NCBI GenBank assembly: GCA_020201435.1
Contig: JAIVGS010000189.1
Coordinates: 14,404-78,403 of the forward strand
Direction of reading: 5' to 3'
Length of the DNA stretch: 64,000 bases
Source: Myxococcales bacterium
GTDB lineage: Bacteria; Myxococcota; Myxococcia; Myxococcales; 40CM-4-68-19
The position numbers and the translations under genes are program-made. Positions 53,270 through 63,583 of the stretch are shown here, one piece after another (position 1 is the first letter of the stretch; every line of letters starts with the position of its first letter). The notes below the pieces were generated by a model, which was not told the origin of the DNA, did no database searches, and worked only from the letters and a program-made list of their open reading frames with translations.

Positions 53270-53887
53270 TCACGGCATCCCGTCGAAGAATTCGACCTCG
53301 CCGGTGGCGAGCTCGTACACGCCGCCGACCACGGCGAGGCCGCGCTCGAGGACCATCCGCTCGATGATCTCGGAGCCGTGCCGCAGTTGATTCGCGCTGG
53401 CGCGGACGTTGGCGCGGGTGGCCACGCGGGCCAGCGCGTCCGGATCGCGCGCGAGGTCGGTCTGCAACAGGGGCTCGATCGCCGGGCGGATGCGGTCGAC
53501 GATCGCCATCAGTCCGCGCGACCCCGCCTTGGCCCGTCCCTGAAGCACGTCGAGCGTCGCGCCCACGCCGCCGCAGAAGGTGTGACCGAGGACCACCACC
53601 AGCGGCGTCTGGAACCGCTCGACCGCGAACTCCACGCTTCCGACCTGCGAGGGCGCGACGATGTTGCCCGCCACGCGGATGACGAACAGGTCGCCGAGAC
53701 CCTGGTCGAAGACGATCTCGGCGGGGACGCGCGAATCGGAACAGCCGAGCACGACCGCGAACGGGTTCTGCCCGTGGACGAAATCGGCCCGCCGCACCTG
53801 GCTCAGAATCGGCTCCGCTCCACGCACGTTGGCGATGAAGCGCGCGTTGCCCTGCTTCAGCTTTTCCAATGCCTCGGGCGCGTTCAT
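53270..53887 (-). CDS. beta-class carbonic anhydrase
   Basis: ATG 53887 ('MNAPEALEKLKQGNARF'), 205 aa. 'LGCSDSRVP', 'FVIRVAGN', 'VLGHTFCGG'. Confidence 0.88.
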   Translation of the reverse strand: MNAPEALEKLKQGNARFIANVRGAEPILSQVRRADFVHGQNPFAVVLGCSDSRVPAEIVFDQGLGDLFVIRVAGNIVAPSQVGSVEFAVERFQTPLVVVLGHTFCGGVGATLDVLQGRAKAGSRGLMAIVDRIRPAIEPLLQTDLARDPDALARVATRANVRASANQLRHGSEIIERMVLERGLAVVGGVYELATGEVEFFDGMP

Positions 53888-53911
53888 GCGCGAGGTTATA
53901 CAATCGCCCGC

Positions 53912-57207: not shown

Positions 57208-57912
57208 TCAAGTCCGCGTCTTCATGTGCGGCAGCGGCGGCTCGAGGACGTGGCCGTTCTGACAGCACTGCACCGGGTGCTGCACCTCGGGCGCCCTCGT
57301 CCAGGCCTGCTGAACGGCCGTGTAGAGCTTGCTCGACGCGACCCGCGCGATCACGTCGCTTCGCACGAACGTGACGCCGACATCGCCGCCCGGGTCCGCG
57401 CGCACGACCTTCACCCGGCCGAGCACACCCGGCATCGGCGGCTCGGCGCCCATGATCCGCATCTCGGCATCGGTCCCCGCCCTCATCCCCGCCGCGCCGG
57501 TCACGCGGGCGCCGTTCATGGCGACGTCGATCATCCGGCCCAGGTACGGCATGCCGCGGACCTTGATCTCGACCATCATGTCGCACCCGATCCGCCGCTG
57601 GTGCCGGCCGACGAAGGCCTTCATGCCCTGGTCGAGCTTGCGGGCGAGCTTGGCGTCGGGAAACTCGATCCAGGCTCCGGTCTGGCCGCCTTCGCCGTCG
57701 AGGCGCGAGAGCACCGCGCCGCGCATCGTGGTCGCCTGCTCGCTGTCGGCGAAGGAGAATTCCATCACCACGCGCGAGGCGCCGGTGAAGCTCGCCATGC
57801 GCGGGTCGCGGTAGAAGAACAGCGTCCGCCCTTCGACCACGTGCAGATGCCTCTGCATCTGCAGGAAAGTCCCGAAGCGGTACTTGAGCAGGGCCGCCGC
57901 ACGCGAATCCAC
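57208..57912 (-). CDS. PilZ-domain protein
   Basis: 234 aa. 'GRHQRRIGCDMMVEIKV...GRMIDVAMNGARV' approximates the RxxxR...D/NxSxxG c-di-GMP motif. Starts 15 nt after the BMC-T stop. Confidence 0.55.
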   Translation of the reverse strand: MDSRAAALLKYRFGTFLQMQRHLHVVEGRTLFFYRDPRMASFTGASRVVMEFSFADSEQATTMRGAVLSRLDGEGGQTGAWIEFPDAKLARKLDQGMKAFVGRHQRRIGCDMMVEIKVRGMPYLGRMIDVAMNGARVTGAAGMRAGTDAEMRIMGAEPPMPGVLGRVKVVRADPGGDVGVTFVRSDVIARVASSKLYTAVQQAWTRAPEVQHPVQCCQNGHVLEPPLPHMKTRT

Positions 57913-57927
57913 CGCATTTGTCTAGGG

Positions 57928-58485
57928 CTAGAGCGCGACTCCGCGCAAGTCGCGGTGGGGACGCGCGATGATCTCAGCCCCGGCCAGCAGGCCGTCGCCG
58001 GCCGCTTGCGTGGCGGCCGCGACCGAGGCTTCGACGGAATGGAGATCGCCGCGCACGATGAACCAGGCTTTCCCGCCGATTCCGCGGGCGAGATGGAGCA
58101 GCTGGAGCCGCACCTGGGCGGCCTTGCAGGCGGCGTCCGCCGAGCGCAGCGCGGCCGCGACCGAATGCACCTCGATTAGACCCGCGGTCTCCTCGGCGGC
58201 GTCGTGGACGAAGCCTTTCGCGCCGGCGCGGATGGCAGGCAGGAGCTGCTCGTGCGCTTGTGGCAAAAACAGCCGATCGACGAGGGCTTCGGCAGCGGCA
58301 GCCGCGCCGGCGGCCTGCGACTCGTCGACCTCGGCGACGCCGCCCGCGAAAAGGATCAGGTACTTCCCGGGGCTGACCGGCTCGCACTGGATCAGCTCGA
58401 TCGACGCGCGCTTCGCGACCGCGTCCGCCACCACCACGCCGCGGGCGAGCGAGGCCACTTCGAGGAGGGCCAGTGCTTCAGACAA
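57928..58485 (-). CDS. BMC-T shell protein (tandem BMC domains, PduT-like)
   Basis: 185 aa. Two BMC repeats: 'LALLEVASLARGVVVADAVAKRASIELI...PGKYLILFAGGVAEVDES' and 'GLIEVHSVAAALRSADAACKAAQVRL...GGKAWFIVRGDLHSVEAS'. Confidence 0.85.
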   Translation of the reverse strand: MSEALALLEVASLARGVVVADAVAKRASIELIQCEPVSPGKYLILFAGGVAEVDESQAAGAAAAAEALVDRLFLPQAHEQLLPAIRAGAKGFVHDAAEETAGLIEVHSVAAALRSADAACKAAQVRLQLLHLARGIGGKAWFIVRGDLHSVEASVAAATQAAGDGLLAGAEIIARPHRDLRGVAL

Positions 58486-59932
58486 TGCGGAACTTGTCCT
58501 TGAGCGTGCAGCGGCGCTCGCGGGTGTAGGTGCGGGCGGTGGTCAGGCCGTCGCCGGAGGAGCCGGCGATGGTCCACGCCGTATATCCCTCGCCGCCGAC
58601 GCCCAACCCAGCGTAAGAAGGCGCGTTTTTGACGAAGAGTGAAGTGTTCACCGCGCGCGCCATGTTGTGCAGGTTGTCGATGCTCTTCGAGTGCATCACG
58701 GCGGTGTGGAAGAAGCCGTGCTCGGCCTTGACCGCTTCGCGGATGGCGACGTCGACGTCCTGCACGCGCACCATCGGGAAGACGGGCATCAGCATCTCGA
58801 GCTGGACGAACGGGTGACCGGCGTCGACTTCGGCGAGGAGGATCTTCGGATCCCCCTCGACGCGGATGCCGGCGGCGTCGGCGATCTTGCGCGCGTCCTT
58901 GCCGATGAAGTCCCGGTTGACGTGGCCGTCCTTGGTGACGACGGTCCGTTCGAGCCTGCTCAAAGCAGCGCCGTCGACCGCCCAGGCGCCGTTCCGGATC
59001 ATCTCGCGCTTCAAGGCGTCGGCGATGCTCCGCACCGCGAACAATTCCTTCTCGACGATGCAGATGATGTTGTTGTCCATCGCCGCGCCGAGGACGACGT
59101 CGCGGCCGGCCTGCTCGAGGTTGGCGGTCTCGTCGACGACGACCGGCGGATTTCCCGGTCCGGCGCAGATCGCGCGCTTGCCGGAGGCCATCGCCTGCTT
59201 CACGACCGCGCCGCCGCCGGTGACGACCACGACCTTGATGCCGGGATGCTTCATGAGAGCCTGGGCGCTCTCGATGGTCGGCTCGGCGATGCAGGCGACG
59301 AGATCCTGCGGCCCGCCGTTGGCGAGGATCGCCTCGTTGATCCAGGTGATCACGGTCCGCGAGATGTTCTTCGCGCCGGGGTGGACGTTGAAGACGACCG
59401 AGTTCCCGCCGGCGATCATGCTGATCGCGTTGTTGACGATGGTCTCGGTCGGGTTCGTCGACGGCGTGATGCTCAAAAGGGTTCCGAACGGCGCCCGCTC
59501 GTGCAGCGTGAGGCCGTCGTCGCCGGTGAAGGCGAGGGTGTCGAGGATTTCGAGCCCCGGCGTCTTCTCGATCGCGACGCGGTTCTTGATGATCTTGTGA
59601 TCGACCCGGCCGAGGCCCGTCTCGGCGACGGCCTTCTCGGCGATCTCCTCGACGCGATCGAGGCAGACCCTGCGGATCGCGGCGATGCACTTCGCCCGCG
59701 TCTCGACTCGGATTTCCTTCCAGATCTCGAATGCTTTGCCGGCCGCGGCGACGGCCTGATCGAGGTCGTCGAAGACCCCGGGCTGCGCGCTGCGCACGTA
59801 TGCCGGGCTGCGGCCCTCGCGGACGGCAAACCCGCGGCCCGCGCCGTCAGCGCCCGCGCCCTCCTGCGGCAAGCCGCGCAGCTTCTCGACGACTTTCTCG
59901 ACGAGCTTGTCGATCTGGTCCGGTGGCAGCAC
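58478..59932 (-). CDS. acylating aldehyde dehydrogenase (PduP/EutE family) with N-terminal encapsulation-peptide-like helix
   Basis: 484 aa. N-terminal amphipathic 'PDQIDKLVEKVVEKL', catalytic region 'MDNNIICIVEKE', 'PFGTLLSITPSTNPTET'. Overlaps the BMC-T start by 8 nt. Confidence 0.85.
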   Translation of the reverse strand: MLPPDQIDKLVEKVVEKLRGLPQEGAGADGAGRGFAVREGRSPAYVRSAQPGVFDDLDQAVAAAGKAFEIWKEIRVETRAKCIAAIRRVCLDRVEEIAEKAVAETGLGRVDHKIIKNRVAIEKTPGLEILDTLAFTGDDGLTLHERAPFGTLLSITPSTNPTETIVNNAISMIAGGNSVVFNVHPGAKNISRTVITWINEAILANGGPQDLVACIAEPTIESAQALMKHPGIKVVVVTGGGAVVKQAMASGKRAICAGPGNPPVVVDETANLEQAGRDVVLGAAMDNNIICIVEKELFAVRSIADALKREMIRNGAWAVDGAALSRLERTVVTKDGHVNRDFIGKDARKIADAAGIRVEGDPKILLAEVDAGHPFVQLEMLMPVFPMVRVQDVDVAIREAVKAEHGFFHTAVMHSKSIDNLHNMARAVNTSLFVKNAPSYAGLGVGGEGYTAWTIAGSSGDGLTTARTYTRERRCTLKDKFRIV

Positions 59933-59944
59933 GGCTGACGCCCC

Positions 59945-60232
59945 TTACTTGGTGTAGGTCTGGCGGCCCTCGAGCTCGATCGCGTCGACGATCGCCATGA
60001 TCGTCGCGTCCACCGGCCGGTCCTTGGTGACGCGGGTCTGCCGCGCCGACGAGCCGCTGGCGTAGAGGACGACTTCGCCGAGGCCCGCGCCGACGGCGTC
60101 GATGGCGACCACCAGCGGCCCGGTCGCGTTGCCTTCCACGTCGGCGCCGCGCACGAGCAGGAGCTTGAGCCCGTTGAGCTCCTGCTCCTTGGTGGTGGAG
60201 ACGATGGTCCCGATGACGCGCCCGAGCAGCAT
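59945..60232 (-). CDS. BMC-P pentameric vertex protein (EutN/CcmL family)
   Basis: 95 aa. '[27 protein letters not shown]...[23 protein letters not shown]'. Confidence 0.88.
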
Positions 60233-60235
60233 CGG

Positions 60236-60406
60236 CTATCTCCGCGATCCGACGAGCAAAAAGAGCGCGCCCACGGCGATCAGCCCGTAGCTCAGGATGT
60301 GCTTCACGTAATGGTGGTTGCCCCAGGTCACGCCGGTCGGCGTGGTGAAGAGGAAGTACCCGCCCGCGACGAGCAGCACGATCCCGATGACGGCGGGCCC
60401 CTTCAT
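60236..60406 (-). CDS. unlisted 56-aa two-TM membrane protein inside the BMC operon
   Basis: Manual translation gives [56 protein letters not shown]. 52 of 56 codons end in G/C. Its ATG overlaps the BMC-H stop (TAATG). Its stop lies 3 nt before the BMC-P ATG. Confidence 0.6.
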
Positions 60407-60735
60407 TACTTCTTCGTGCCGGAAGCGTTCCCGCCGCCGAGCTCGCGGCGGGCGTCGTCGCTGCGGCCGAGCGGCAGCGCGAGGTCGATGTTCGCGTGCG
60501 GCCGGGGAATGACGTGCACGCTGACCAGCTGTCCGACGCGTTCGGCGCCCCGGGCGCCGGCTTCGGTGGCGGCCTTCACCGCCGCGACGTCGCCGCGGAC
60601 GATCGCCGTCACGTACCCGCCGCCGATCTTCTCGTACCCGATCAGCTCGACCTTGGCGGCCTTGACCATCGCGTCGGCGGCTTCGACCATGCCGACGAAG
60701 CCCTTGGTCTCGATCATCCCCAGCGCGTCTGCCAT
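60406..60735 (-). CDS. BMC-H hexameric shell protein (PduA/EutM-like)
   Basis: Start re-set to ATG 60735 ('[56 protein letters not shown]'), 109 aa, with a charged C-terminal extension. Confidence 0.9.
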
Positions 60736-60804: not shown

Positions 60805-61455
60805 CTACATCCGATAGCCGACCACGATCTCGGTCGTGAACGCGAAATCGGTCGGCGAGTTCGCGTACGAGTAGAACTGGGGGCCGAACTTCACGTTGAG
60901 GCCGACCAGCAGGTTGCGATCGACGTTGTATTCGGCGGCAAATCCGAACTGCGGGCCGATCTCGAAGTACGCCGTATGCGACCAGTTGATCGCCATCGTC
61001 AGATCGGCGCTGGCGCTGATGCGCAGGTCGGGGGTGGCCTGGATGCCGAGCGTGCCCCCGACTGGAAACCGGGTGAAGAAATTCGAAGTATTGTTCTTGG
61101 TGTACAGCCGCACGCCGGGTTCGATGTGCAGCCCGATCAGCACTTTTTCGTGCCGGTTGACGACCAGCCGCAGCGGCACATCCGCGCCCGCGCCGAACGT
61201 GGAATTGTTCGTGTTTTCGGCGGCGTAGAGCAGGGCGATCCTGAACCCGAAGTCGGAGCGGTCGGAGAGCCCGTGCAGGTAGCCGAAGGTGAGGCCCGGC
61301 CAACCCATCTCGAACGAGATCGCGTCGCGATCGGGGCTCACCGTCTCGCCGGTCGCGATCGACCAGTGGCCGGCCGCGCCGGGCGCGACGGCGGTGACGG
61401 GAACGCTGGCGGGAGCGGCGGCGGCGAGGACGAGGCTAAGACTTGCTATCACCAC
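60805..61455 (-). CDS. signal-peptide-bearing beta-barrel (OMP-like) protein
   Basis: Natural composition and alternating beta-strand pattern ('[12 protein letters not shown]','[15 protein letters not shown]','[13 protein letters not shown]','[13 protein letters not shown]'). GTG 61455/61452 follows AAGGAAG. The signal would be '[15 protein letters not shown]'. Start is uncertain (track start 61551). Confidence 0.6.
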
Positions 61456-62077
61456 GGACTTCCTTGCCGCTGACCCCCTGAATCGCGGCGGTTGCGGCAG
61501 CGGCAGCGCTGTCGATCTCGGCTTCGTCGCCCGACATGTAGAGGCGACCAAACGCGCCGAACGGCGTCACGTCAATCAGCCGCACGTCTGCGGCCTTTTC
61601 GGCCTCGTTGGCGGCGAGGACCGCGTACGCGGCCGGCTCGGTCTCCATGATGAACAGGCTGCGTCCCGGCTCGATCATCGAGCCGAAGCGGATCTTGTCG
61701 ATGATCATCGCGTGCATCGGCTCGATGGCGCGGATGATGGTGTTGGAGACGACCTTCGGCCTGGCCCGGTCCTCTTCCTTCGCGCCGAGGTGCTTCAGGA
61801 TCGCGTCGCCCGCGCTGCGGACTTCGCCCTTGTCCTCGTGATGCACTTCGAGCATCCCGAACGCGCGCTCGACGACCAGGGTGGCCGGATGCACGCCGGT
61901 GTTCTTGAGCGCGGTGTCGATCACCTGGTGGATGGCCATCCCCGGCGCGATCTCGACGAACAGCGAGGCGACGTACGGGACCGGAAAGTAGCCGCGGCAG
62001 GTGGTGCAGATGTGCGCGGCCAGCTGCGGCTGGAGCGAGTCGAGGAAGACGTACGCGCGAAGGTTGGTCTGGGCCAT
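61436..62077 (-). CDS. BMC-T shell protein (CsoS1D-like tandem type)
   Basis: ATG 62077 ('[23 protein letters not shown]'), 213 aa. '[46 protein letters not shown]' is a BMC domain. The N-half '[20 protein letters not shown]...FGMLEVHH' is a second one. Confidence 0.8.
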
Positions 62078-62133: not shown

Positions 62134-62251
62134 GGAACGGAACGGAACGGAACGTTCACGGTGAGGGGTGAGGGGTTTGGGGTTGCGGGTTGGGGTCCCT
62201 GAACCTACACCCTCACCCCGATCCCCTGAACGTTCCGTTCCGTTCCGTTCC
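62134..62251. repeat. 118-nt palindromic element with (GGAAC)4 arms and a G-rich centre
   Basis: Arms GGAACGGAACGGAACGGAACGTTCA (62134-62158) and TGAACGTTCCGTTCCGTTCCGTTCC (62227-62251) are perfect 25-nt reverse complements. Partial pairing continues inward. Confidence 0.9.
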
Positions 62252-62278: not shown

Positions 62279-63583
62279 ATGCCCGTCATCAAGAGTTGGG
62301 CCCGCACCGACGTCGGGCACAAGCGGAAGCACAACGAAGACGCGTACTTGATCGACAAGGAGCTCGGTCTCTACGCGGTCGCCGACGGGATGGGCGGGCA
62401 CGCCGCCGGCGAGGTCGCGTCGGGGCAGGCGGTCAAGTCGATCCGCGACGCGCTCGCCGAGGGAAAGCCGATCCTCGAGGCCTTCGCGAAATCGCCGACC
62501 GTCGAATCGCGCGAGCAGATCGCGTCGCTGATGGAGCGCGCCATCCACAAGGCGTGCTCGGACATCCACTCGCTGGCGACCAGCGATCTGGGAAAGCGCG
62601 GCATGGGAACCACCGTCGTCGCGCTGCTCGCGGCGGGCCGGAAAGCCGTGGTCGGCCACGTCGGCGACAGCCGGGTTTATTTGTTTCGCAACGGAAGGGC
62701 GCACCAGCTCACCGAGGATCACACCATCATCCAGGAGCAGCTCAAGCGCGGGTTGATCACCAAGGAGCAGGTTCCGACCGCGGACAACAAGAACGTCATC
62801 ACCCGCGCGGTCGGCATCCAGCCGTCGGTCGCGGTCGACACCCTCGTCACCGACCTGCTGCCGGGCGATCTCTTCGTCCTTTGTTCGGACGGGCTTCACG
62901 GTTACCTGCAGGACGACGAGCTGCCCGGGCTGCTCGCGCAGGATCGCGAGAAGCTGCCGGATGTACTCGTGGATCTCGCATTGCAGCGGGGCGGCAAGGA
63001 CAACGTCACCGCGGTCTGCCTCTCGATCGAGGCCGACGAGGACGAAGAGACCAGCGACGTCGAGGGCAAGACCGAGATCCTCCGCCGCATCCCGCTCTTC
63101 CAGCACATGACCTACAAGGAGCTGCTCGCCATCCTCGGCATCGCCCGCGGCCGGCAGTTCGAGAAGGGCCAGAGCATCATCAAGGAAGGGGAGCAGGGCG
63201 ACGAGCTGTACGTCCTCTTCCGCGGCAAGGTCGACGTGCTCAAGGGCGGGCTCAAGATCGCGCAGCTCAAGGCCGGCGGGCACTTCGGCGAGATGGGCCT
63301 CGTCGACCAGGCCCCGCGCTCGGCGACGGTGACGGCGGCCGAGGACACCTCGGCGATCTCGATCGACCGCGACAGCCTGCTCAAGCTGATGCGCCGCGAT
63401 TCGCTTCTCGCGGTCAAGTTGCTGTGGAGCTTCGTGCAGGTCCTGTCCGAGCGGCTGCGCAACACCAACGACGCGCTGACGGCGCTCAACGCCGAGCTCG
63501 ACCAGGTCCGCGCCAAGAACACCGCGCCCGCTCTCGAAGCCGCCCCTCCAAAAAAATCCGGCCCGCCACCTTTTGGGCAATGA
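62279..63583 (+). CDS. PP2C-family Ser/Thr phosphatase fused to a cyclic-nucleotide-binding domain
   Basis: ATG 62279 ('MPVIKSWARTDVGHKRKHNEDAY...AVADGMGGHAAGEVAS...LCSDGLHG...GGKDNVTAV'). C-terminal CAP-ED 'GEQGDELYVLFRGKV...HFGEMGLVDQAPRSATV'. Confidence 0.88.
   Translation: MPVIKSWARTDVGHKRKHNEDAYLIDKELGLYAVADGMGGHAAGEVASGQAVKSIRDALAEGKPILEAFAKSPTVESREQIASLMERAIHKACSDIHSLATSDLGKRGMGTTVVALLAAGRKAVVGHVGDSRVYLFRNGRAHQLTEDHTIIQEQLKRGLITKEQVPTADNKNVITRAVGIQPSVAVDTLVTDLLPGDLFVLCSDGLHGYLQDDELPGLLAQDREKLPDVLVDLALQRGGKDNVTAVCLSIEADEDEETSDVEGKTEILRRIPLFQHMTYKELLAILGIARGRQFEKGQSIIKEGEQGDELYVLFRGKVDVLKGGLKIAQLKAGGHFGEMGLVDQAPRSATVTAAEDTSAISIDRDSLLKLMRRDSLLAVKLLWSFVQVLSERLRNTNDALTALNAELDQVRAKNTAPALEAAPPKKSGPPPFGQ

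What the first reader, a model, noticed from the sequence alone, without database searches (positions are those of the whole stretch)
60236..60406. Unlisted 56-codon two-TM ORF wedged between the BMC-H and BMC-P genes
This ORF is absent from the track because it is under 60 aa. Minus-strand translation from ATG 60406 gives [56 protein letters not shown]. 52 of its 56 codons end in G/C. Its ATG overlaps the BMC-H stop (TAATG), and its stop lies 3 nt before the BMC-P ATG, so it sits fully inside the shell-gene transcription unit. It has two hydrophobic helices joined by a His-rich loop (NHHYVKH). BMC shells are proteinaceous and cytoplasmic. An integral-membrane mini-protein encoded between shell genes is not a standard locus component. 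It could tether or position the compartment, or it could be unrelated cargo.
Basis: seen in the sequence. Interest (0 to 1): 0.6.

Follow-up and report, generated by a model that had tools for sequence, protein, structure and literature searches.

The report
Mini membrane protein in microcompartment operon
A real, conserved 56-residue gene for a predicted two-helix inner-membrane protein sits between two shell genes of a Haliangium-type bacterial microcompartment operon in uncultured myxobacteria, where it is an optional, lineage-specific add-on of unknown role, not a shell part.

Summary
The ORF at 60236-60406 (-) is exactly as described and is a genuine gene. GenBank already lists it as a hypothetical protein of a Myxococcales MAG. 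About 45 homologue clusters (35-88% identity, 50-67 aa) exist. Every homologue whose flanks are visible lies between BMC-H and BMC-P of an HO-type (Haliangium ochraceum-like) shell operon. The family appears nowhere else among 1.84 billion representative proteins.

The protein is a hydrophobic helical hairpin (AF2 pLDDT 90). Its loop motif [15 protein letters not shown] is under strong purifying selection (dN/dS 0.18), whereas the helices drift (about 0.8). Charge bias predicts both termini in the cytoplasm and the motif in the periplasm.

It is not a core component. Only 3 of 80 HO-like loci retrieved through BMC-P carry it. It was gained once in a sub-lineage and then lost at least three times by different internal deletions, while the shell operon stayed intact.

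Best reading: an accessory inner-membrane mini-protein, translationally coupled to the shell genes, that probably binds a ligand or metal, or forms a channel, at the membrane. A shell tether is disfavoured by the predicted topology and by the unconserved cytoplasmic ends. Function is unproven. It is a new small-protein family and a new variant of a known locus type, of moderate interest.

The parts
60236..60406 (-). Mini-gene: 56 codons plus TAG. Deposited as hypothetical protein ABR567_17310.
   Evidence: Homologues.
60344..60400 (-). Helix 1 (residues 3-21), hydrophobic and Gly-containing (G8 and G15 invariant).
   Evidence: AF2 helix 3-21. KD 1.95. Hydrophobic moment 0.06. dN/dS 0.83, with hydrophobicity kept.
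60299..60343 (-). Conserved connecting motif [15 protein letters not shown] (residues 22-36). W28, G29, H31 and H32 are invariant. H32 and H36 are spaced i,i+4 on the first turns of helix 2. Predicted to face the periplasm.
   Evidence: Alignment A1. dN/dS 0.18 with dS 0.75. AF2. Charge bias.
60248..60298 (-). Hydrophobic core of helix 2 (residues 37-53). G46, F49 and L50 are invariant.
60240..60243 (-). GGAG inside codons 55-56 (CGG AGA), 7 nt upstream of the BMC-P ATG. It is the likely ribosome-binding site of BMC-P, so R55 is under a double constraint.
   Evidence: Read from the sequence. CGGAG is conserved in all 8 codon-aligned homologues and is retained in the deletion remnants.
60406..60735 (-). 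BMC-H shell hexamer gene, closest to H. ochraceum HO-5815. Its stop overlaps the mini-gene ATG.
   Evidence: Pfam. PDB 5djb E 6e-47.
59945..60232 (-). BMC-P shell pentamer gene, 64% identical to the H. ochraceum BMC-P chain of shell structure 5V74.
58478..59932 (-). Aldehyde dehydrogenase with an encapsulation-peptide-like amphipathic N-terminus.
57928..58485 (-). Tandem-domain BMC-T (PduT-like).
60805..61452 (-). Outer-membrane beta-barrel protein (signal peptide, C-terminal VVGYRM) inserted between BMC-T and BMC-H. It is present in every mini-gene locus but also occurs without it and without any BMC gene.
61436..62077 (-). CsoS1D/CcmP-like double BMC-T, first gene of the shell unit. The open frame extends to 62098.
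57208..57912 (-). PilZ-domain protein directly after the last shell gene. Conserved in this sub-lineage.

Best explanation
The ORF is a genuine, translated gene for a 56-residue inner-membrane helical hairpin.

Shown:
- It belongs to a small, previously undescribed protein family.
- The family is found only between BMC-H and BMC-P of HO-type microcompartment operons, in one sub-lineage of uncultured Myxococcota.
- It was gained once and has been deleted repeatedly, so it is an accessory and not a core part.
- Selection acts mainly on the connecting motif [15 protein letters not shown].
- The two helices only need to stay hydrophobic.

Inferred:
- Translation is coupled to BMC-H, because stop and start overlap or lie 2-3 nt apart.
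- The gene's last codons supply the ribosome-binding site of BMC-P.
- Both termini stay in the cytoplasm, and the Trp/His/Tyr motif sits at the periplasmic membrane interface.
- The Gly-rich helices let it oligomerise or dock onto another membrane protein.
- The motif, including His32/His36 on one helix face, binds a small ligand, metal ion or proton.
- The protein therefore serves as a mini-facilitator, or as a sensor or modulator, that couples something outside the cytoplasm to microcompartment expression.
- That role would match in kind the EutH/PduF membrane proteins of other BMC operons, but it is optional.

It is neither a shell subunit nor cargo.
For: Real gene:
- 37 homologue clusters, E down to 8e-26.
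- A profile search of 1.84 billion representatives finds only 10 clusters.
- The loop has dN/dS 0.18 with dS 0.75, and synonymous changes occur inside VTWGNHHY. So the constraint is on the protein and not on the DNA.
- GC3 is 0.93, like the neighbours.
- It is called and deposited as a hypothetical protein.

Position:
- All homologues with visible flanks sit between BMC-H and BMC-P. This includes the most divergent ones, P0047 and P0044.
- The start is 0-3 nt from the BMC-H stop in all of them.

Membrane hairpin:
- KD 1.95 for both segments.
- AF2 gives helices 3-21 and 29-53 with pLDDT 89.6.
- Hydrophobic moments are 0.06-0.15.
- The only sub-threshold Pfam hits are transmembrane families.
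- The best, non-significant, fold matches are 2-TM accessory subunits of membrane complexes.

Topology: K/R count is about 4 on the termini against about 1 in the loop in 43 of 43 sequences.

Accessory status:
- 3 of 80 BMC-P-anchored loci carry it.
- Carriers form one clade, with non-carriers nested inside it.
- Remnants with three different breakpoints are seen in L009, L016 and L011.

Tied to the BMC genes rather than to the neighbouring porin: loci that kept the OMP-like and PilZ genes but lost all BMC genes also lack it.
Against: - No experiment shows translation, membrane insertion or topology.
- A simple sum with the Hessa biological scale (values from memory) is marginal, at +1 to +3 kcal/mol per helix.
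- Overall dN/dS is 0.63 and loss is frequent, which shows weak or conditional selection.
- The proposed ligand, metal or channel role rests only on motif chemistry and on analogy.
- No transporter-like or metal-related partner gene is conserved next to it.
- A 56-residue hairpin is far smaller than EutH or PduF.
- Part of the C-terminal conservation (R55) may reflect the embedded ribosome-binding site and not the protein.
Confidence: 0.5

Rival explanations
1. Membrane tether. The hairpin anchors or positions the microcompartment at the inner membrane by binding BMC-H or BMC-P. It would bind either through its short cytoplasmic ends or, if the topology is inverted, through the conserved loop.
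For: It is strictly co-located and translationally coupled with the two shell genes and is never found without them. The conserved loop would be a plausible docking surface if it faced the cytoplasm.
Against: Charge bias places the loop outside the cytoplasm in 43 of 43 sequences. The predicted cytoplasmic ends are 3-6 residues and variable: MKGP, MNPR or MKPQ at the N-terminus and SRR, RSN or RRS at the C-terminus. Shell-protein tails do not differ between carriers and non-carriers. The gene was lost at least three times with the shell operon intact.
Confidence: 0.12
2. Passenger or orphan gene. It is a young lineage-specific membrane peptide that landed at a permissive junction of the operon and has a function unrelated to the microcompartment, or only a marginal one.
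For: The same H-P junction holds unrelated small lipoprotein-like ORFs in other HO loci: L030, L044 and L064. Loss is frequent. The helix sequences are under relaxed constraint. The operon in this lineage is a mosaic that also contains an outer-membrane barrel gene able to live without BMC genes.
Against: The loop motif has been under strong purifying selection over a divergence that reaches about 35% identity. The family is never seen anywhere else among 1.84 billion representatives. It disappears together with the BMC genes, whereas the barrel and PilZ genes stay.
Confidence: 0.15
3. Expression device. The ORF mainly acts in cis. An extra termination-reinitiation step lowers BMC-P output relative to BMC-H, and co-translational membrane insertion may drag the mRNA to the membrane. 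The peptide itself would be secondary.
For: Start and stop are tightly coupled to both neighbours, and the ORF's last codons carry the BMC-P GGAG. Pentamers are needed in far smaller numbers than hexamers (established BMC knowledge). Deletion derivatives keep the GGAG or fuse the start contexts.
Against: A pure spacer would not keep an invariant W-G-x-H-H motif with dN/dS 0.18. It would also not keep two hydrophobic helices across the family. Most HO loci manage with a 2-21 nt H-P gap.
Confidence: 0.1
4. Non-membrane hydrophobic hairpin that associates with the shell or lumen, for example by plugging a pore or binding a hydrophobic substrate.
For: Its location between shell genes. Marginal insertion energy on the crude Hessa sum.
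Against: The helices are uniformly hydrophobic with no amphipathic face. The termini carry positive charge, typical of membrane hairpins. No resemblance to any BMC domain or encapsulation peptide.
Confidence: 0.05
5. Not a gene: a chance open frame in GC-rich DNA.
For: GC-rich genomes have many long spurious frames.
Against: Homologues down to E 8e-26, positional conservation, codon-position GC pattern, and loop dN/dS 0.18 with synonymous variation.
Confidence: 0.02

Closest known systems
HO-type (Haliangium ochraceum) bacterial microcompartment, type I main locus (Sutter et al. 2021, PMC8217296)
   Same: Same gene order: BMC-T(dp), BMC-H, BMC-P, AldDH with N-terminal encapsulation peptide, BMC-T(s). 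BMC-H matches HO-5815 (E 6e-47). BMC-P is 64% identical to the HO pentamer. Found in myxobacteria/Deltaproteobacteria.
   Different: The published type I main locus holds only shell genes plus AldDH. This sub-lineage has three extra genes in the unit: an outer-membrane beta-barrel, the 56-aa membrane hairpin, and a PilZ protein.
Membrane proteins encoded in BMC operons for substrate entry (EutH, PduF)
   Same: Inner-membrane proteins co-transcribed with shell genes and dispensable for shell assembly (established knowledge of the eut and pdu operons). This is what the mini-protein most plausibly works like.
   Different: EutH and PduF are multi-pass proteins of known transporter or channel families. 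The mini-protein is a 2-helix, 56-residue protein with no family match. A transport role is inferred and not shown.
Bacterial small membrane proteins that act as accessory subunits or modulators (AcrZ, KdpF, CydX, MgtS; cf. PMC7267776)
   Same: Under 60 residues, essentially only transmembrane helix, encoded inside the operon it serves, often missed by annotation, helices tolerant of substitution. The nearest fold matches are 2-TM accessory subunits of V-ATPase, bcc-aa3 and OST, but these matches are not significant.
   Different: Those proteins sit in operons for membrane complexes. Here the operon encodes a cytoplasmic protein shell, and no membrane partner is identified. There are two helices with a conserved extracytoplasmic motif, not one helix.
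Two-helix metal importers of mer operons (MerF/MerE), and the ATP-synthase c-subunit as the archetypal Gly-rich hairpin
   Same: Helical hairpins of 55-80 residues with ligand-binding residues at the membrane interface, or with a functional loop. They function as oligomers or together with partners (established knowledge).
   Different: No sequence similarity. The motif uses His/Trp and not Cys pairs. No metal-resistance or metal-enzyme genes are nearby. The predicted orientation is opposite to that of the c-subunit.

Membership tests
HO-type BMC locus (type I main locus) | BMC-H of the HO-5815 type and a BMC-P of the HO type | tested here: met
   PDB 5djb E 6e-47. 5v74 BMC-P E 6e-33, 64% identity.
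HO-type BMC locus (type I main locus) | AldDH with an N-terminal encapsulation peptide as the only enzyme, flanked by BMC-T(dp) and BMC-T(s) | tested here: met
   Pfam Aldedh. Amphipathic N-terminus (hydrophobic moment 0.63-0.67) followed by a Gly/Ala linker. CcmP/CsoS1D-like and PduT-like BMC-T.
HO-type BMC locus (type I main locus) | BMC-P triplet (two further BMC-P, usually on a satellite locus with an aldolase) | tested here: inconclusive
   No second BMC-P within the 64-kb window. The rest of the genome was not available.
HO-type BMC locus (type I main locus) | Main locus contains only shell genes plus AldDH | tested here: not met
   An extra OM barrel, the mini-gene and PilZ lie inside or at the end of the unit. 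It is therefore a variant of the type.
Integral inner-membrane helical hairpin (2-TM small protein) | Two hydrophobic segments long enough to span a bilayer | tested here: met
   KD 1.95 over 19 residues for both. AF2 helices 3-21 and 29-53. The crude Hessa sum is marginal.
Integral inner-membrane helical hairpin (2-TM small protein) | Positive-inside charge distribution that defines a topology | tested here: met
   Termini about 4 against loop about 1 K/R in 43 of 43 sequences.
Integral inner-membrane helical hairpin (2-TM small protein) | Experimentally shown membrane localisation | not testable with these tools
   Needs fractionation or reporter fusions.
BMC cargo / encapsulation peptide | Amphipathic helix of about 18 residues joined by a flexible linker to a soluble domain | tested here: not met
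   Hydrophobic moment is 0.06-0.15, against 0.63-0.67 for the AldDH N-terminus. There is no soluble domain.
BMC shell protein (PF00936 / PF03319) | BMC or EutN/CcmL domain | tested here: not met
   No Pfam or NCBIfam hit.
DUF202 / YidH (name given by JGI to homologue P0037) | Score above the Pfam gathering threshold (23.4 bits) | tested here: not met
   12.7 bits for the window protein. Best E among the 38 members is 0.003, which is compositional transmembrane similarity.
Secreted protein or lipoprotein with a cleavable signal peptide | Lipobox Cys, or an AxA-type cleavage site after helix 1 | tested here: not met
   No Cys. Helix 1 is followed by T-T-P-x-x-V.

The most novel reading that the evidence does not exclude
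The mini-protein is a dedicated membrane docking or gating element. Co-translational insertion of the hairpin from the shell mRNA, followed by oligomerisation, would place nascent HO-type compartments at the inner membrane, beneath the locus-encoded outer-membrane barrel. This would create a trans-envelope route that feeds an external substrate, or a metal, straight to a protein organelle. It would be the first membrane-linked bacterial microcompartment.
Probability: 0.08. Interest if true: 0.8.

Novelty: new variant of a known kind. Interest (0 to 1): 0.42.

Why it matters
The HO shell is the main structural and engineering model for bacterial microcompartments, yet its native function is still called enigmatic (PMC8217296). 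A strictly locus-bound membrane mini-protein with a conserved His/Trp motif facing outward is an unexpected accessory. If it handles a ligand or metal, it could point to the substrate or signal of this organelle. It also gives a clean natural experiment: sister lineages with the gene, with deletion remnants, and without any BMC genes. More generally, it shows that sub-60-aa genes inside well-studied operon types are still overlooked.

Tried and rejected
- Family searches gave nothing above threshold. Pfam (single protein and all 38 members) and NCBIfam returned only transmembrane-type compositional noise.
- Foldseek of the AF2 hairpin against the PDB had a best E of 0.9 and is uninformative beyond 'helical hairpin'.
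- Rfam and promoter/terminator scans of 56.5-63 kb found no RNA family. Terminator and promoter counts were within the range of the shuffles. The single 'terminator' inside the ORF (60357-60375) is not above background.
- Literature searches for membrane proteins in HO loci found nothing.
- An 'envelope module' of the mini-gene plus the neighbouring outer-membrane barrel was considered and downgraded. The barrel occurs without the mini-gene, and in L095-L100 it occurs without any BMC gene, while the mini-gene never occurs without BMC-H and BMC-P.
- The apparent non-BMC homologue P0043 (110 aa) is a probable chimeric 1.6-kb contig.
- The 461-aa 'cluster member' P0290 is an unrelated NtrC-type regulator and a clustering artefact.
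- An M2-like HxxxW proton-gate analogy was rejected. The order is W-x3-H, and the residues lie at the interface and not in the membrane core.
Its state is therefore indirect, resting on two lines of evidence:
  - the catalog text;
  - about 60 metagenomic loci with comparable BMC-P identity (64-74%), in which BMC-H directly abuts BMC-P.

Full report
OBSERVATION. 52 of its 56 codons end in G/C. The GC profile by codon position (0.59/0.43/0.93) matches that of the flanking genes. Its ATG overlaps the TAA of the upstream gene (TAATG). Its TAG lies 3 nt before the ATG of the downstream gene. No alternative in-frame start exists upstream. Pfam identifies the neighbours as BMC-H (PF00936) and BMC-P (PF03319). 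These are followed by an aldehyde dehydrogenase and a tandem BMC-T, and preceded by a weak OMP_b-brl hit and a CsoS1D-like BMC-T. The window comes from a Myxococcales MAG (GCA_046262975.1, contig JBHELR010000173.1). There the 56-aa gene is called and deposited as a hypothetical protein. So 'unlisted' reflects only the first stage's 60-aa threshold.

WHAT LOCUS THIS IS. BMC-H is nearly identical to H. ochraceum HO-5815 (PDB 5djb, E 6e-47). BMC-P is 64% identical to the pentamer of the HO shell structure 5V74. The locus is therefore an HO-type microcompartment main locus. The published catalog describes the function of this organelle as enigmatic. [quoted passage not shown]

IS THE ORF A GENE? 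Yes.
- A search of 5.8 billion proteins gives 37 clusters of 51-67 residues at 53-88% identity, with E from 8e-26 to 3.6e-10.
- The alignment shows invariant G8, G15, P23, V26, W28, G29, H31, H32, G46, F49, L50 and R55, and the motif [12 protein letters not shown][LV]KH.
- In a codon alignment of eight loci, the loop (codons 22-36) has dN/dS 0.18 at dS 0.75. Synonymous changes occur inside the motif (CAC/CAT, GTG/GTC, GGC/GGA, AAC/AAT, TAC/TAT). The constraint is therefore on the peptide and not on the DNA or RNA.
- The two helices have dN/dS 0.83 and 0.75 but remain hydrophobic.
- The whole-gene dN/dS is 0.63, against 0.12 for BMC-H and 0.22 for BMC-P.

WHERE THE FAMILY OCCURS.
- An exhaustive HMMER profile search of 1.84 billion representative proteins finds only 10 clusters.
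- A scan of one genome per GTDB species finds three loci, all Myxococcales/Deltaproteobacteria MAGs.
- Every homologue whose flanks can be seen lies between BMC-H and BMC-P. This includes the most divergent ones, P0047 (motif TPGHATWGSNH) and P0044.
- The one apparent exception (P0043) is a 1.6-kb contig. It joins low-GC DNA to the 3' half of a mini-gene followed by a BMC-P start, and is most likely a chimera.

HOW GENERAL IT IS. I retrieved 80 metagenomic loci through BMC-P alone (64-91% identity), so the sample is blind to the mini-gene. I then scanned them with the family HMM. Only 3 carry it (L012, L014, L015). In nearly all others BMC-H is followed directly by BMC-P, with a 2-21 nt gap. 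Mapping the other locus genes shows three tiers:
- The broad HO arrangement is T-H-P-AldDH-T.
- A sub-lineage (AldDH at least 71% identical) has an extra outer-membrane-barrel gene between BMC-T and BMC-H, and a PilZ gene after the last BMC-T.
- The mini-gene occurs only inside this sub-lineage.

GAIN AND LOSS. An NJ tree of BMC-H + BMC-P + AldDH puts all carriers in one clade. L017/L018/L019 (barrel present, no mini-gene) are the sister group. The non-carriers L009/L010/L011/L013 and L016 are nested inside the carrier clade (internal supports are low). Independent of the tree, the junction sequences show deletion scars with different breakpoints:
- L009 keeps ATGAAC...ATCGCCGTGGGCGCG...GTCGGGTCGCGGAGA, that is codons 1-3 fused to about codons 43-56.
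- L016 keeps the first six codons fused to CGGAGGTAG.
- L011 keeps only the 3' GCGCGGAGG.
- L010 and L013 read TAG-CC/CG-ATG. This is the mini-gene's own start context now serving BMC-P. Short direct repeats (TAGCC..ATG) flank the gene in carriers.

The gene was thus gained once and lost at least three times while the shell operon stayed intact.

THE PROTEIN.
- Both hydrophobic segments reach Kyte-Doolittle 1.95 over 19 residues.
- AlphaFold2 with the family alignment gives a hairpin of helices 3-21 and 29-53 at pLDDT 89.6. This puts H32 and H36 one turn apart on the first turns of helix 2, next to W28 and Y33.
- The helices have almost no hydrophobic moment (0.06-0.15). By contrast, the AldDH N-terminus, an encapsulation-peptide-like helix, scores 0.63-0.67.
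- K/R counts are about 4 on the two termini and about 1 in the loop, in 43 of 43 sequences. By the positive-inside rule this predicts N-in/C-in with the conserved motif on the periplasmic side.
- The cytoplasmic ends are 3-6 residues and variable.
- A crude sum with the Hessa scale (values from memory) is only marginal, so insertion is predicted and not proven.
- No Pfam or NCBIfam family reaches threshold, and the JGI label 'YidH/DUF202' for one homologue is not supported.
- Foldseek finds nothing significant. The nearest shapes are 2-TM accessory subunits of membrane complexes.

TRANSLATION SIGNALS. In all carriers the start lies 0-3 nt after the BMC-H stop, behind the conserved AAGAAG (Lys-Lys) codons. 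This suggests termination-reinitiation coupling. Codons 55-56 (CGG AGR) contain a GGAG 7 nt upstream of the BMC-P ATG. This motif is conserved and is kept in the deletion remnants. No promoter or terminator signal above shuffled background, and no Rfam family, lies in the unit.

THE NEIGHBOURING BARREL GENE.
- The 215-aa protein upstream of BMC-H has a signal peptide and a C-terminal VVGYRM/L.
- It folds as an all-beta protein (pLDDT 80.5).
- It matches only outer-membrane beta-barrels in the PDB: Pla/OmpT, OmpA, OmpG, NanC and KdgM, with E down to 2e-5.
- I first considered it the mini-protein's partner. However, it persists where the mini-gene was deleted.
- In L095-L100 it sits directly next to the PilZ gene, in the same MshEN-MshEN-X neighbourhood, with no BMC gene at all.
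- In the barrel-protein tree these BMC-less loci group with the window's closest relatives (90% bootstrap). This implies secondary loss of the whole BMC set.
- The mini-gene is absent from those loci.
- So its fate is tied to the BMC genes and not to the barrel.

INTERPRETATION.
Shown: a real protein-coding gene; a new, very narrow family; a strict position inside the HO shell operon; selection focused on a Trp/His/Tyr motif between two hydrophobic helices; accessory status with repeated loss.
Inferred: membrane insertion, N-in/C-in topology, translational coupling, oligomerisation through the Gly-rich helices, and a role in binding a ligand, metal or proton at the outer face of the inner membrane.

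The role would be comparable in kind to the optional membrane proteins EutH and PduF of other BMC operons. It could also resemble small accessory subunits such as AcrZ or KdpF.

The tether idea is disfavoured by the predicted topology, the unconserved cytoplasmic stubs and the gene's dispensability. It is not excluded. A passenger-gene reading gains some weight from unrelated lipoprotein-like ORFs at the same junction in other HO loci. It is countered by the strong loop constraint and the exclusive BMC association. A pure expression-spacer role does not explain the invariant motif.

NOVELTY AND SCORE. The family is undescribed: there is no Pfam or NCBIfam model, databases list it only as 'hypothetical protein', and the HO literature searched does not mention it. 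It defines a variant of a known locus type and not a new kind of system. Interest is moderate (0.42). A membrane mini-protein wired into a shell operon is unexpected and could give a handle on the unknown function of HO compartments. However, it is optional, confined to uncultured lineages, and its mechanism is unproven.

Noticed in passing
L030:2703-2939, L044:2483-2971, L064:2745-2981: Other HO-type loci carry unrelated small ORFs at the same BMC-H/BMC-P junction. Each has a lipoprotein-type signal (lipobox AFAC, LGAC, LALGC). Two are 78 aa and Cys-rich. GC3 is 0.81-0.92, there is no Pfam hit, and they are not significantly similar to each other. The junction seems to recruit exported small proteins repeatedly.
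   Followed up: partly
L095-L100 (for example L095:3001-4437): The outer-membrane-barrel gene and the PilZ gene are directly adjacent, in the same MshEN-MshEN-X neighbourhood, with no BMC gene present. In the barrel tree these loci nest with the window's closest relatives (90% bootstrap). This suggests the whole microcompartment gene set was lost in two blocks while the barrel and PilZ were kept.
   Followed up: partly
window 62134-62251: A nested inverted repeat lies in the 201-nt divergent intergenic region between the first shell gene and the PP2C/cNMP-binding gene. Its outer arms are (GGAAC)x4-GTTCA, 28 nt, 96% complementary and 62 nt apart. The inner arms are GGGGTGAGGG/CCCTCACCCC. (GGAAC)3 occurs nowhere else in the window (0 expected) and, among the fetched loci, only in L001. 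It may be a regulator-binding site or a small repeat element.
   Followed up: partly
window 57208-57912 and 62279-63583; L001-L008: The shell operon in this sub-lineage is bracketed by signalling genes. A PilZ-domain protein comes directly after the last BMC-T. A PP2C phosphatase with a cyclic-nucleotide-binding domain is divergently transcribed. Two MshEN-domain proteins lie beyond that. This hints at second-messenger (c-di-GMP/cNMP) control.
   Followed up: no
L017:108-665 and 755-1303; L006:3877-5199: L017 has two tandem copies of the outer-membrane-barrel gene upstream of BMC-H. L006 has an additional 440-aa gene with no Pfam match between the barrel gene and BMC-H.
   Followed up: no
L093:1255-1587 (protein P0043): A 110-aa predicted protein fuses an unrelated low-GC N-terminal part to the C-terminal half of a mini-protein, followed by a BMC-P start at the contig end. 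It is most likely a chimeric metagenome assembly and not a second genomic context.
   Followed up: yes
window 58478-59932 (N-terminal codons): AldDH residues 3-20 form a strongly amphipathic helix (hydrophobic moment 0.63-0.67) followed by a Gly/Ala-rich linker. This fits the N-terminal encapsulation peptide reported for HO AldDH.
   Followed up: yes
window 53270-53900 (-): A beta-carbonic-anhydrase-like sequence (Pro_CA motif, read by eye) lies a few kb from the locus. In L001 a Pro_CA gene directly follows the PilZ gene. I did not examine it further.
   Followed up: no
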